A program made the position numbers and the translations under genes. A DNA stretch of 64,000 nt from NCBI GenBank assembly GCA_965209085.1, contig OZ242376.1, positions 128,001 to 192,000 on the forward strand, given 5' to 3'. This document shows positions 23,507 through 32,093 of the stretch, one piece after another. How positions within the stretch are numbered: the stretch's first letter is position 1; the number at the start of each line of letters is the position of its first letter. The notes beneath the pieces are model-generated. The model was not told where the DNA came from. It saw only the letters and a program-made list of their open reading frames with translations, and ran no database searches. The stretch is from Nitrosopumilaceae archaeon (lineage in GTDB: Archaea > Thermoproteota > Nitrososphaeria > Nitrososphaerales > Nitrosopumilaceae).

Positions 23507-23587
23507 GTATGAGGTCACATCATGCCTAGAATTTACGCAATAAATGAAGATGTAGGCACAAAATAGCACGAGGTGCTGACCTCATAC
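23507..23587. mobile_element. 81-bp MITE family A, intact copy
   Basis: TIR GTATGAGGTCA/TGACCTCATAC; perfect 8-bp TSD AAATATTG (23499-23506, 23588-23595). Confidence 0.92.
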
Positions 23588-28003: not shown

Positions 28004-28218
28004 TTGCGGCCAAAAATTCTACTCAAAAATCCTTTTTTTGGACCGCCGTCTCGAATTATTTTTTTTCCACCAAACTTTTTTGATCTGATTTGTGTTAATT
28101 TCACACAACGGTGATCCTCTGGCAACCTATGTTCTGTACAAAAGGGATCTTTACAGTAATTACACTCAAATGGCATATCGATCATATCTCCACAATACGC
28201 ACACGGTTTTTCAAGCAT
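28000..28218 (-). CDS. AN1-type zinc finger protein
   Basis: CxxC...CxxC...FCxxHRLPEDHxC. Confidence 0.88.
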   Translation of the reverse strand: MLEKPCAYCGDMIDMPFECNYCKDPFCTEHRLPEDHRCVKLTQIRSKKFGGKKIIRDGGPKKGFLSRIFGRN

Positions 28219-28327
28219 ATGGTTTCATTTGAATAATCTGCCTATTAAACATCTAGACCATTTTGACGTATGAGGTCACGTCATGCCTAGAATTTATGCA
28301 ATAAATAGACCGTATCCATGTGAATAC

Positions 28328-28343
28328 TTTTTAAAGGTTTCTT
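28328..28343 (-). promoter_or_regulatory. TATA box (TTTAAAAA) plus purine-rich BRE-like sequence, positioned for the recombinase only after circularisation
   Basis: In the joined-end circle the box lies at -30 to -23 from the GTG at 29640. Confidence 0.6.
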
Positions 28344-28518
28344 GCTTTTTTGTGTCATGCGGTATGGCTTTCGCTATGTGTCTGGTTCCAACCAAAAGAT
28401 AAAAGACATCTATCCATTCGGGATTTAATCCCACAACCATCTTCATCTACATGTTAAAGCTTACCGCAGTTATGCAGCCGGGGTAACATCCCCAAAGTCT
28501 AACCCGCGGTTTGTTGCT
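28340..28518 (-). ncRNA. Putative bridge/seek RNA with target- and donor-binding loops
   Basis: Hairpin 1 (28463-28510) loops UUAGACUU and UGCAUA match the MITE-B terminus; hairpin 2 (28397-28448) loops AUGGUUGU and AUGGAUA match the IS circle junction ATGGT-TAT-CCAT; transcript ends are estimates. Confidence 0.8.
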
Positions 28519-29640
28519 TTAACGATGATGTATTTCAAATTCACTCCTATCCTTTAGCATACGAAATATGATATCCAGCATCTTGGCCGCTGCTGCAACT
28601 TTGGCCTTGGATGATCCTCTCTTTTTTGCAAGACGCCGGTAAAATTCAGAAATGTTACTCTCTGATGCAAATCGGACATGTGTGGTAACAGCTTCCACCA
28701 ATGCCCACCGCATCATCCTGCTGCCTCTTTTTGTTATATGTCCGTGATGGACCACATCTGCTGAATTACGAACCGATGGGGCAAGACCCGCATATGATTT
28801 GAGTTGTTTTGGTTCAGAAAATCTCTCAACTCCATCAATCTCTGCTGCCAGTATCAATGAAATAAAATCACCTATGCCAGGTATTATCTTGAGCAACATT
28901 GCATCCTTGTTTGAACAGGATGCGTTGTGTACCTTTATGTTTGAGTCTGCAATTTTTGTATTAACGAATCCAATAGAATCCAAATATCCGTTTATACGGT
29001 AATCCTTTAGAGAACGCAGTTTTCTATTGTATGTAAGCGTAAATGTTGCTCCAAAGATCTTTATCCCTCCCTGTAATAAAATTCCATGTATTTTGTTTTT
29101 TAGAGTTGTCCTTGTCTTGACAAGACTGTCGCGATATCGTACAAGTTGCCGTTGTTCCACTATGTCCTTGTTTGAGACATGACAGAGGGATATGTATCCG
29201 CATCGTAACAGATCTGCAAGTGTTACAGCATCCCTCTTGTCGGTCTTTTTCTTGGATGCGGCGATGATTTTTGTCGCCCATGGATTTGACAATACGACAT
29301 TATAACCCATTTTATCTGTCATGTATCGATATAGACCGTACCATACGGATGAAGATTCCATTACGATTTTTGCATTTTCAGGTACGCTTGATCTGAAGAA
29401 TCGACTGATGGACTTGTTTTCATTTTCAATCCTCTCATTAAAAATCACTTTGGCTTTTTTATCCATCATTGCAACTTGAAGAAATTTCTTGTGAACGTCC
29501 ATTCCAACAAACATATTCTTCCCAGAATATGTGGTAATCTGTTTGTTTGCATTTGGATCTTTTTTAGATGATTTACGTTTCGGTGATACGGATCGTTTGA
29601 CATTCTTACAACCATCTGTGGTCTTAGAAGCTCTCTTCAC
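28519..29640 (-). CDS. IS110-family DEDD transposase/recombinase
   Basis: GMDVHK, VMESS, KTDKRDA (DEDD); IPGIG, YAGLAPSVRNSA (catalytic Ser region), TKRGSRMMRWAL; alternative start ATG 29514. Confidence 0.96.
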   Translation of the reverse strand: MKRASKTTDGCKNVKRSVSPKRKSSKKDPNANKQITTYSGKNMFVGMDVHKKFLQVAMMDKKAKVIFNERIENENKSISRFFRSSVPENAKIVMESSSVWYGLYRYMTDKMGYNVVLSNPWATKIIAASKKKTDKRDAVTLADLLRCGYISLCHVSNKDIVEQRQLVRYRDSLVKTRTTLKNKIHGILLQGGIKIFGATFTLTYNRKLRSLKDYRINGYLDSIGFVNTKIADSNIKVHNASCSNKDAMLLKIIPGIGDFISLILAAEIDGVERFSEPKQLKSYAGLAPSVRNSADVVHHGHITKRGSRMMRWALVEAVTTHVRFASESNISEFYRRLAKKRGSSKAKVAAAAKMLDIIFRMLKDRSEFEIHHR

Positions 29641-29772
29641 ATATGGTTATGCATAATCGTTCAAATTGGTCATTTTTATTCGTAAAAATTGTGAATTTGA
29701 CCCATTATGCATGAAGTCTAATGAAGATGTATGCATAAAATAACACGAGGTACTGACCTCATACATTTTGAC

Positions 29773-29853
29773 ACGTAAGTTTATGCTGTGCCTATAATTT
29801 ACACGAAAAATCAAGATCTAGGCACAAAATAAGACTGGGCGTTGACCTCATAC
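29773..29853. mobile_element. Older degenerate MITE family A copy in tandem
   Basis: 81 bp, intact right TIR TGACCTCATAC, internal tgccta/taggca; flanks ATTTTGAC/ATTTTGAT. Confidence 0.8.
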
Positions 29854-29948
29854 ATTTTGATAGAAATTGCATGCGTGGTCATTTTATATCTGATAATTCT
29901 AGGCGACATTATATCGTTATATCCAAATATGCCGTTATCACAGATAAT

Positions 29949-30692
29949 ATGATGTTAAAGGATAAAGTGGCAATAATAACCGGTGCAAGTAGCGGCATTG
30001 GACGAGCTACTGCCATCGCACTAGCCGGCCAGGGTTGTAAAGTGGCCATTGGAGCTAGAAGAACATCCAATCTTGAAAAACTACAAGATGAAATTGAAAA
30101 ATCCGGTGGACAGGCTTTTGCACAAAAGCTTGATGTTTCTGATAGACATAGCTGTGAATCATTTGTAAAAGAAGTTTTAAAAAAATGGAACGAAGTGGAC
30201 ATACTGGTAAACAATGCTGGTCTTATGCCGTTGAGTTTTTTTAAGAATTTAAAATATGACGAATGGGATCAAATGATCGACGTAAACATAAAAGGTGTTC
30301 TCTACTGTACCGGCGCGGTCATTAATCACATGAAATCCAAAAAATCTGGTCATATTGTAAATATTTCATCCGTTGCAGGAAGAATTGTTTTTCCTTCTGG
30401 CAGTGTTTATTGTGCTACAAAACATGCCGTAACCGCATTAAGCGAAGGACTTCGTCAGGAATTTAGCGCACGTTCGAACATACGTGTAACATGCATAGAA
30501 CCTGGTGTTGTGGCAACAGAACTAACCCACACTATAACCGATGAATCCTTGAAAGATTTTGTCGATAAAGCAAAAACCATGGAATCTCTTTCAGCCGATG
30601 ATATTGCAAAAGCAATTGTATATGCCGTGGATTCCCCTATGAATGTAAACGTAAACGAGATTCTCATAAGACCTACTACGCAGGAGCGTTAG
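29949..30692 (+). CDS. Short-chain dehydrogenase/reductase (YdfG/YoxD-like)
   Basis: TGASSGIG, LVNNAG, NISSVAG, YCATKH, IEPGVVAT; start moved from 29871 to MMLKDK. Confidence 0.93.
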   Translation: MMLKDKVAIITGASSGIGRATAIALAGQGCKVAIGARRTSNLEKLQDEIEKSGGQAFAQKLDVSDRHSCESFVKEVLKKWNEVDILVNNAGLMPLSFFKNLKYDEWDQMIDVNIKGVLYCTGAVINHMKSKKSGHIVNISSVAGRIVFPSGSVYCATKHAVTALSEGLRQEFSARSNIRVTCIEPGVVATELTHTITDESLKDFVDKAKTMESLSADDIAKAIVYAVDSPMNVNVNEILIRPTTQER

Positions 30693-32015: not shown

Positions 32016-32093
32016 AGACTTCATGCATAATGGGCCAAATTCACAATTTTTACGAATAAAAATGACTGATTTTAATGATTATGCGTGAGGTCT
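32016..32093. mobile_element. 78-bp MITE family B, intact copy
   Basis: AGACTTCATGCATAAT ... ATTATGCGTGAGGTCT imperfect TIR; TSD ATT/ATT. Confidence 0.88.

What the first reader, a model, noticed from the sequence alone, without database searches (positions are those of the whole stretch)
28260..29772. Three-level nested insertion: IS110 inside MITE-B inside MITE-A, with every junction reconstructable
Seen: removing the IS (leaving one TAT) restores a 78-bp MITE-B. Removing that (one AAT) restores an 81-bp MITE-A matching 23507-23587, which is flanked by the 8-bp duplication ATTTTGAC. Inference: the IS110 guide is programmed against the terminal inverted repeat of another mobile element. That makes the IS a hyperparasite using a multicopy intergenic safe harbour, as some bacterial IS110s do with REP sequences and transposon ends, and its insertion would immobilise the MITE.
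Basis: partly seen in the sequence, partly recalled or inferred. Interest (0 to 1): 0.85.

Follow-up and report, generated by a model that had tools for sequence, protein, structure and literature searches.

The report
Archaeal guide-RNA transposon targeting transposon ends
A small jumping gene in an ammonia-oxidising archaeon carries its own guide RNA that steers it into the end-repeats of other jumping genes, a lifestyle already known from a few bacterial relatives but here seen, with its guide readable, in archaea.

Summary
It is an 8-bp duplication (ATTTTGAC), then an 81-bp MITE-A, then a 78-bp MITE-B flanked by AAT, then a 1332-bp IS110-family element flanked by TAT. The rebuilt MITE-B is 78/78 identical to an intact copy elsewhere in the genome.

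- All 17 ends of this IS on the guide-RNA side, and 11 of 12 ends on the other side, lie at one position, AGAnnnTAT^GCATAAT.
- That position is in the terminal inverted repeat shared by MITE-B and its roughly 1.4-kb IS5-like parent IS.
- The 203-nt region downstream of the transposase folds into two hairpins with internal loops, which is the bridge/seekRNA architecture.
- The loops of the first hairpin match both sides of the target. The second hairpin matches the IS ends.
- A guide variant (C to G) goes with the matching target variant.
- In 33 related RNAs, 14 of 20 stem pairs show compensatory changes. Guides fit their own flanks far better than other elements' flanks.
- Relatives target other transposon ends: an IS630-family terminus, the same repeat 6 bp further in, and a 129-bp MITE end.

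This is an IS1111-type element, a new member of a known kind. Bacterial IS4321 and IS5075 hit Tn21-family transposon ends in the same way. That the insertion immobilises the MITE was not tested.

Other first-stage notes of this scan on the same genome already proposed a guide RNA and listed these MITE families.

The parts
28260..28267 (.). Left copy of the 8-bp target duplication of MITE-A (ATTTTGAC)
   Evidence: Identical 8-mer at 29765-29772.
28268..28306 (+). Left arm of MITE-A (39 bp). Its last 3 bp, AAT, are the site that MITE-B duplicated.
   Evidence: 94.9% identical to positions 1-39 of the intact MITE-A. Rebuilt element is 81 bp.
28307..28315 (+). Outer 9 bp of the MITE-B inverted repeat (AGACCGTAT). 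Its last 3 bp, TAT, contain the crossover core.
   Evidence: Intact MITE-B copies read AGACCGTATGCATAAT without a break.
28316..29647 (-). IS110-family (IS1111-type) insertion sequence, 1332 bp, ends CCATGTGAA.../...TTCACATATGG
   Evidence: 17 plus 12 ends mapped in the genome with the same boundaries. 99.2% identical to the copy at genome 693541-694967.
28519..29640 (-). Transposase/recombinase gene, 373 aa from a GTG at nucleotide 8 of the element
   Evidence: PF01548 and PF02371. NF033542 'IS110 family RNA-guided transposase', 218.6 bits against a cut-off of 140. One of only two copies with an open frame over the whole query.
28464..28509 (-). Target-binding hairpin of the guide RNA. Outer stem CCGCGG/CUGCGG, 5' loop GUUAGACUUU, inner stem GGGG/CCCC, 3' loop GGCUGCAUAA.
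   Evidence: Loops match the two sides of the insertion site. Stems covary.
28404..28448 (-). Donor-binding hairpin. Outer stem AGAUG/UGUCU, 5' loop AAGAUGGUUG, inner stem UGGGA/UCCCG, 3' loop AAUGGAUAGA.
   Evidence: The 3' loop equals the element's end ATGG plus ATA. GG or AG in this loop goes with a CACATGG or CACATAG end in 23 of 23 relatives that have an end found.
28328..28335 (-). TATA-like box TTTAAAAA, 13 nt inside the element's end, reading outward
   Evidence: Conserved in the 7-sequence alignment. Promoter role inferred only.
29648..29650 (.). Second copy of TAT (core repeat)
29651..29719 (+). Remaining 69 bp of MITE-B
   Evidence: 100% identical to the intact copy.
29720..29722 (.). 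Second AAT (3-bp duplication made by MITE-B)
   Evidence: ANT duplications flank the family.
29723..29764 (+). Right arm of MITE-A
29765..29772 (.). Right copy of ATTTTGAC
23507..23587 (+). Intact MITE-A used as reference, flanked by AAATATTG on both sides

Best explanation
The 1332-bp element is an IS1111-type member of the IS110 family in an ammonia-oxidising archaeon.

Components
- It encodes a DEDD recombinase.
- Downstream of that gene it encodes a roughly 110-nt two-hairpin bridge/seekRNA.
- The first hairpin's internal loop pairs with both strands of the target. The 5' side pairs with the flank next to the element's guide-RNA end. The 3' side pairs with the opposite strand on the other side. 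They meet at a TA core.
- The second hairpin's loop pairs with the element's own joined ends.

Target
- The guide is set to (T)TAGA[C/G]YTT-AT-GCATAA.
- That sequence is the last nucleotide or two of the 3-bp duplication plus the first 16 bp of the inverted repeat. The repeat is shared by an IS5-like (DDE_Tnp_4) IS and its 78-bp MITE.
- The element therefore lands 9 bp inside the tips of those elements, always in one orientation.

History of this locus
- The MITE-B copy had itself landed at an AAT inside an older MITE-A. That gives the three-level nest.

Shown: the sites, the RNA structure and the guide-target fit.
Inferred: that the RNA is made and bound, that a circular intermediate exists, and that the host element is disabled.
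For: Family
- The protein matches PF01548 and PF02371, and NF033542 above its cut-off.
- The genome encodes archaeal AmoA.

Insertion sites
- 17 of 17 and 11 of 12 ends lie at the same position in the repeat.
- Uninterrupted repeats exist in 85 element ends, on MITE-B and on both ends of the roughly 1.4-kb parent IS.

Core
- 16 occupied against 42 empty TAT-type ends, and 0 occupied against 43 empty CAT-type ends. Fisher p = 5e-5.

Guide loops
- GUUAGACUUU and GGCUGCAUAA match the two target halves.
- All 4 copies with guide ...GAGUUU sit at AGAGTT-type ends. Of the 9 insertion events with ...GACUUU, 6 sit at AGAC- or GGAC-type ends. One-sided Fisher p = 0.049.

RNA structure
- RNAalifold gives two hairpins with internal loops.
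- In 33 RNAs, 92.4% of cells are paired against 81.5% in shuffles (0 of 500 shuffles reach it). With partners slid, 40-52% are paired. 14 of 20 pairs show changes on both sides.

Own against foreign flanks
- 5' guide pairing run: mean 7.2 (n = 19) against 3.8 (n = 316), p = 7e-11.
- 3' guide identity: mean 6.0 (n = 12) against 3.1 (n = 132), p = 2e-7.
- Donor loop against element end: 23 of 23 agree.

Retargeted relatives
- A second type in this genome sits at the TA terminus of an IS630-family IS, with 4 of 7 ends occupied.
- A G001 element sits 6 bp further inside the same repeat. A G002 element sits at the same position as this one.
- G095 elements sit 6 bp inside the inverted-repeat motif that ends a 129-bp MITE, seen intact in G112. 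The G015 elements share a close variant of that target.
Against: - No RNA data: the one run search found only DNA-type contigs, none on record as RNA, so transcription and the RNA's ends are unknown.
- No circle junction or polymorphic empty allele was seen. Contigs break at the repeats.
- The window copy's own site (AGACCGTAT) pairs with the 5' guide over only 6 contiguous positions.
- Three guide-A insertion events sit at AGAG-type ends with a C·C mismatch.
- The register of the 5' guide relative to the core differs by 2 nt between this element and the IS630-targeting type. I cannot explain this.
- One of 12 ends abuts an unrelated repeat.
- The structure counts were made on an alignment fitted to the model.
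- The sequences are related, so the p-values overstate.
Confidence: 0.85

Rival explanations
1. The site preference is read by the protein, not by an RNA. The recombinase recognises the palindromic TTATGCATAA of the inverted repeat, and the downstream hairpins are only a terminator or a binding site.
For: The target contains a perfect 8-bp palindrome, TATGCATA, a typical protein site. No expression data are available.
Against: Relatives with the same protein fold and the same stems have different loops that each match their own, unrelated targets. A within-genome guide variant tracks a target variant. NCBIfam names the family RNA-guided.
Confidence: 0.05
2. The shared flanks belong to the element itself. 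Either the true IS is longer and carries the AGAnnnTAT and GCATAAT pieces with it, or MITE-B is a deletion derivative of the IS110 element.
For: Every copy has the same flanks, which is also what mis-set boundaries would give. An earlier first-stage note read MITE-B as a derivative of the IS (e1-6368415).
Against: - 85 uninterrupted repeats exist, including both ends of a 1.4-kb IS with its own DDE_Tnp_4 transposase.
- The flank continues into three different interiors: MITE-B, parent IS end A and parent IS end B.
- The 3-bp duplications outside vary (AAT, ATT, ACT, AGT).
- The interior of MITE-B has no similarity to the IS.
Confidence: 0.02
3. The nest is an assembly artefact. Repeats were collapsed or chimerically joined at this locus.
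For: Short-read contigs stop inside the repeats. No listed contig bridges 28294-28330.
Against: - The genome is one 1.69-Mb contig.
- All three levels have exact duplications, and excision rebuilds a 78/78 match.
- The right-hand junctions from 29694 into the unique flank (to 30200 in two runs, to 29957 in the third) are in contigs of three runs without a difference. These runs may include the source sample.
Confidence: 0.03

Closest known systems
IS4321 / IS5075 (IS1111 group, Enterobacteria)
   Same: IS110-family elements with sub-terminal inverted repeats. They insert at one position, in one orientation, inside the terminal inverted repeats of another transposon family (Tn21). I saw this only as the title of Partridge & Hall 2003 in the reference list of PMC11208160 and in passages of PMC11187229.
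   Different: - The host is an archaeon.
- The targets are an IS5-like IS and its MITE, not Tn3-family transposons.
- Sister elements in the same archaeal family hit an IS630-family terminus and another MITE.
seekRNA elements ISEc11, ISKpn4, ISPa11 (Siddiquee et al. 2024, PMC11187229; sections 6, 9 and 13 read)
   Same: - The long non-coding region lies downstream of the transposase gene.
- Two short guide segments overlap in the target. The match to the top strand lies 5' of the match to the bottom strand.
   Different: No sequence relationship was tested. Here a second, donor-matching hairpin directly follows the target hairpin. Nothing here has been shown experimentally.
IS621 bridge RNA (Durrant et al. 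2024, PMC11208160; passages read)
   Same: - Two internal loops. The first pairs with the target and the second with the donor.
- Each side of a loop pairs with a different strand, overlapping at a core.
- The recombinase has the same two Pfam domains. The IS621 and ISCro4 structures are the only PDB hits (E = 6.6e-6 and 2.1e-8, C-terminal domain only).
   Different: [quoted passage not shown]
- Here the RNA lies downstream and the order is reversed.
- The core is TA, not CT.
ISPpu9 and other REP-targeting IS110 elements (PMC12288879, abstract seen; Tobes & Pareja 2006, title seen in a reference list)
   Same: They use a multicopy intergenic repeat as the landing site.
   Different: REPs are not transposon ends. 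Here the landing site is the functional tip of another mobile element.

Membership tests
IS110 family | DEDD transposase with DEDD_Tnp_IS110 and Transposase_20 domains | tested here: met
   PF01548 E = 7e-28 and PF02371 E = 1e-21. NF033542 218.6 bits against a cut-off of 140.
IS110 family | Site-specific insertion without a long duplication; only a short core is repeated | tested here: met
   TAT is repeated at both junctions. The same site is used at 17/17 and 11/12 ends.
IS1111 group | Longer non-coding region downstream of the transposase gene | tested here: met
   203 nt downstream (28316-28518) against 7 nt upstream of the GTG.
IS1111 group | Sub-terminal inverted repeats of 7-17 bp | tested here: met
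   CCATATGTGAA at one end and CCATGTGAA at the other (reverse complement). They are imperfect, differing by a 2-nt indel, and start 1 nt from the end.
IS1111 group | Transposase clusters with IS1111-type transposases; C-terminal GL-P----S/T-G motif | tested here: inconclusive
   The protein reads GLAPSVRNSA, so it has GL-P but SA in place of SG or TG. No phylogeny against ISfinder sequences was made.
Bridge RNA / seekRNA | Structured RNA with internal loops flanked by conserved stems | tested here: met
   RNAalifold structure. 14 of 20 pairs compensatory, and 92.4% paired against 40-52% with partners slid.
Bridge RNA / seekRNA | Loop sides complementary to opposite strands of the target, overlapping at the core, and varying with the target | tested here: met
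Bridge RNA / seekRNA | Second loop complementary to the element's joined ends | tested here: met
   The 3' loop AUGGAUA or AUAGAUA follows the end CACATGG or CACATAG in 23 of 23. The 5' loop fits with one mismatch and one wobble.
Bridge RNA / seekRNA | RNA is transcribed, binds the recombinase and is needed for transposition | not testable with these tools
   None of the 5 runs listed is on record as RNA.
MITE-B as a derivative of the IS5-like parent | Same inverted repeats and same duplication length as an autonomous element in the genome | tested here: met
   - The AGRnnYATGCATAAT ends are shared by both. A 3-bp ANT duplication flanks the ends scanned (AAT, ATT, AGT or ACT before 92 of 123 matches).
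- The parent encodes a 398-aa protein with DDE_Tnp_4 and DDE_Tnp_1 above their cut-offs, and HTH_Tnp_4 below its cut-off (21.7 bits against 27).
- Its NCBIfam IS5 models score only 60 bits against a cut-off of 140. It is therefore IS5-like, not a certified member.

The most novel reading that the evidence does not exclude
A whole clade of archaeal bridge-RNA recombinases, found in 18 of 121 genomes and 8 of 27 genera of this ammonia-oxidiser family, lives as hyperparasites of other transposons.
- Their guides are repeatedly re-set to the tips of whichever IS or MITE family is abundant in the host (IS5-like, IS630-family, a 129-bp MITE).
- Guide variants track repeat variants, which would be an RNA-programmed arms race between mobile elements.
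- Each insertion splits the tip the host element needs. If so, the net effect would be to disable it, a natural transposon-against-transposon control.
Probability: 0.35. Interest if true: 0.75.

Novelty: new member of a known kind. Interest (0 to 1): 0.55.

Why it matters
- It gives a natural, readable example of bridge/seekRNA targeting in archaea.
- One genome holds occupied and empty sites that differ by single bases (TAT against CAT core, AGAC against AGAG arm). It also holds two guide variants. Together these form a ready-made specificity experiment.
- Targeting of transposon tips recurs in several lineages against unrelated IS families. That suggests a stable niche rather than an oddity.
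- For annotators, it explains why these small streamlined genomes show nested repeats.
- It supplies a covariance model that finds the RNA.

Tried and rejected
- Rfam: no family matched 28200-29800. The best matches were chance snoRNA hits at E of about 1 or more.
- Empty alleles in public runs: only short contigs were available. They break at the repeats. One 96-nt contig in X4 joins 28303 to 29720, but it cannot be told apart from any other intact MITE-A copy. This gives no evidence either way.
- Composite mobilisation (host IS plus passenger moving together): not seen. The two occupied parent copies are 91.7% identical while their passengers are 98.2-98.6% identical. I read this as independent insertions. 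This does not test immobilisation.
- Base-precise empty site in the congener G001: the intergenic sequence has diverged beyond ...TTAAACATCTA. Only the length difference, 104 against 1689 bp, can be used.
I rejected this. That stretch lies in the 5' side of what I read as the donor-binding hairpin, and the true target is the MITE-B repeat.
- Literature: searches 'IS110 + Nitrosopumil' (3 papers), 'bridge RNA + IS110 + archaea' and 'IS110 + MITE + terminal inverted repeat + target' listed nothing describing archaeal IS110 elements that target transposon ends. Passages of PMC13343696 and of the bioRxiv preprint 10.1101/2024.06.21.599552 do not mention it either. Supplements were not seen and might list such targets.

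Full report
**What is there**

I read 28100-29950 and recomputed the pieces by coordinate.
- ATTTTGAC stands at 28260-28267 and again at 29765-29772.
- Between these copies lies an 81-bp MITE-A, 28268-28306 plus 29723-29764. It is split after an AAT.
- The insert is a 78-bp MITE-B, 28307-28315 plus 29651-29719, flanked by AAT on both sides. It is itself split after AGACCGTAT.
- The innermost insert is a 1332-bp element, 28316-29647, with TAT on both sides.
- Rebuilt, MITE-B is 78/78 identical to an intact copy at genome 1111177-1111254.
- Rebuilt, MITE-A is 75/81 identical to window 23507-23587 and 77/81 to three of the other six copies compared.
- Going by identity, MITE-A is the oldest layer and the two inner layers are recent.

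The window is 128001-192000 of a single 1.69-Mb contig. That genome encodes archaeal AmoA, so the host is an ammonia-oxidising archaeon.

**The three families**

- MITE-A: BLAST with the intact copy gave 44 hits, partial ones included. Ends are GTATGAGGTCA... and many complete copies have 8-bp duplications.
- MITE-B: BLAST gave 41 hits of MITE-B length, with some palindromic copies counted on both strands. Flanks are 3-bp ANT duplications.
- MITE-B shares its ends (AGRnnYATGCATAAT) with an IS of about 1.4 kb. BLAST found 32 matches of at least 150 bp to this IS.
- That IS encodes a 398-aa protein with DDE_Tnp_4 and DDE_Tnp_1 above their cut-offs, and HTH_Tnp_4 below its cut-off. NCBIfam IS5 models match below their cut-offs. 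It is the parent of MITE-B.
- The innermost element encodes a 373-aa protein with both IS110 domains. It scores above the cut-off of NCBIfam's 'IS110 family RNA-guided transposase'.

**Where the IS sits genome-wide**

- BLAST with its two ends found 17 ends on the side downstream of the transposase and 12 on the other side.
- All 17 are preceded by an AGAnnnTAT-type tip, nearly all with the ANT duplication in front. One reads CAC for TAT and a few are degenerate.
- 11 of the 12 are followed by TATGCATA[AT]T.
- The longer flanks show eight of these inside MITE-B, one in end A of the parent IS and two in end B.
- The twelfth abuts an unrelated repeat with three further matches in the genome. Its partner end has a normal tip.
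- Orientation relative to the repeat is always the same.
- Two left ends (728589 and 959461) share near-identical flanks over 150 nt and count as one event.
- Two occupied parent copies are 91.7% identical to each other, while their passengers are 98.2-98.6% identical. These were separate hits, not one composite that moved.
- Only two copies keep an open transposase frame: this one and the copy at 693.5 kb.

**The core**

- Among 85 uninterrupted ends, 42 read TAT and 43 read CAT at the crossover.
- Sixteen occupied ends read TAT and none reads CAT (Fisher p = 5e-5).
- The base at an occupied junction could come from the element itself, so this is suggestive rather than proof.

**The guide RNA**

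- In transposase orientation, 203 nt follow the stop codon and only 7 nt precede the GTG.
- The first hairpin is at 28464-28509 on the minus strand. It has an outer stem CCGCGG/CUGCGG and an inner stem GGGG/CCCC. Its internal loop reads GUUAGACUUU on the 5' side and GGCUGCAUAA on the 3' side.
- The 5' side is complementary to A-AAGTCTAA. That is the flank at the element's guide-RNA end for an AGACTTTAT-type tip.
- The 3' side equals TGCA-TA-A, the flank at the other end. It therefore pairs with the opposite strand.
- The two matches overlap at the TA core. This is the order Siddiquee et al. give for IS1111-type seekRNAs (section 9 of PMC11187229). It is the reverse of IS621 (passages of PMC11208160).
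- The second hairpin is at 28404-28448. Its loops are AAGAUGGUUG and AAUGGAUAGA, and they match the element's own two ends joined through ATA.

**Tests of the guide model**

1. Within the genome. Four copies carry ...GAGUUU instead of ...GACUUU, and all four sit at AGAGTT-type tips. Of nine events with ...GACUUU, six sit at AGAC- or GGAC-type tips and three at AGAG tips. One-sided Fisher p = 0.049.
2. Across relatives. A protein search of 41 genomes found relatives in 9.
   - A 7-sequence alignment folds into the two hairpins, with 5 compensatory pairs.
   - A covariance model built from it matched 18 of 121 genomes and 8 of 27 genera of the family.
   - In 33 aligned hits, 92.4% of cells pair. 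Shuffles give 81.5% (0 of 500 reach the observed value), and slid partners give 40-52%. 14 of 20 pairs change on both sides.
   - That alignment was fitted to the model and the sequences are kin, so these numbers lean in favour of the model.
3. Guides against flanks.
   - For 19 distinct 5' guides, the longest pairing run with their own flank averages 7.2, against 3.8 for 316 foreign pairings (p = 7e-11).
   - For 12 distinct 3' guides, identity with their own flank averages 6.0, against 3.1 for 132 foreign pairings (p = 2e-7).
   - The donor loop reads GG or AG exactly as the element end reads CACATGG or CACATAG, in 23 of 23.
   - Ends could not be located for 10 of the 33 hits. One further hit was dropped for a guide shorter than 8 nt.

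**Relatives hit other transposon tips**

- A second type in this genome, about 60% protein identity, has the guide CGCAGUAUAU.
  - It sits at ...TA^TACTGCGG, the TA terminus of a 1.12-kb IS whose protein passes the IS630 model.
  - Four of the seven ends of that IS are occupied.
- In the same-genus genome G001, one element has guides UCUUGUGCAU and GUCAAUAA. It sits 6 bp further inside the homologous IS5-like repeat. In G002 another element sits at the same position as here.
- In G095 the target motif GGAASTA^CTGATG occurs 15 times, against 0 for the reversed control.
  - In G112 the motif forms the two inverted ends of a 129-bp MITE. The insertion point is 6 bp from the tip.
  - The G015 elements share a close variant of that target, though the exact 13-nt pattern has no uninterrupted copy there.

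**What remains open**

- No RNA or circle data exist for this organism in what I could reach.
- The window copy's own site pairs with the 5' guide over only six contiguous positions.
- The 5' guide register differs by 2 nt between the two types in this genome. I cannot explain this.
- Immobilisation of the host MITE is an inference from the split repeat.

**Comparison and verdict**

- This is an IS1111-type element with a bridge/seekRNA.
- Targeting the inverted repeats of another transposon is known from IS4321 and IS5075. Targeting multicopy repeats is known from REP-directed elements.
- The new points are the archaeal host, the IS5-like/MITE and IS630 targets, the recurrence across lineages, and the natural single-base variants of guide and site in one genome.
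- My searches and the passages I read show no description of this in archaea.
- I rate it a new member of a known kind, of moderate interest.

Noticed in passing
window 29773-29861: A diverged MITE-A relative lies directly after the nest. The ATTTTGAC at 29765-29772 serves as the right duplication of the new MITE-A and as the left flank of the old one. The old one's right flank is ATTTTGAT. The same 8-bp site therefore seems to have been hit twice.
   Followed up: partly
window 28328-28335 (minus strand) and 29638-29640: - A TATA-like TTTAAAAA lies 13 nt inside the element's guide-RNA end and is conserved in relatives.
- After circularisation it would lie about 24 nt upstream of the GTG, which is nucleotide 8 of the other end in all six relatives looked at.
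- It was counted by hand only.
   Followed up: partly
genome 558904-561638 (locus L024): One IS110 copy that sits in the tip of a parent IS is itself split by a 99.4%-identical copy of that parent IS (559669-561068) with an ATT/AAT duplication. The two families have inserted into each other.
   Followed up: partly
genome 662-697 kb: A dense cluster of copies and fragments of the IS110 types, the IS5-like IS and MITE-B. It looks like an IS graveyard.
   Followed up: no
loci L002, L003, L004 (genome 666.5, 856.5 and 1172 kb): All three copies examined of the IS630-targeting type share a stop after residue 208 of the transposase frame (...SYKYIASL). Either they share an inactivating mutation or the frame is recoded.
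   Followed up: no
genome 1299998-1300975, 688427-688933, 955170-955514, 724217-724561: A third, distant IS110-family type (33-35% protein identity) is present. Its RNA and targets were not examined.
   Followed up: no
window 32016-32093 and 1947-2030: Two further MITE-B copies lie in the window. The copy at 32016 has an end that fits the 5' guide well but reads CAT at the core, and it is empty. This fits the core rule.
   Followed up: partly
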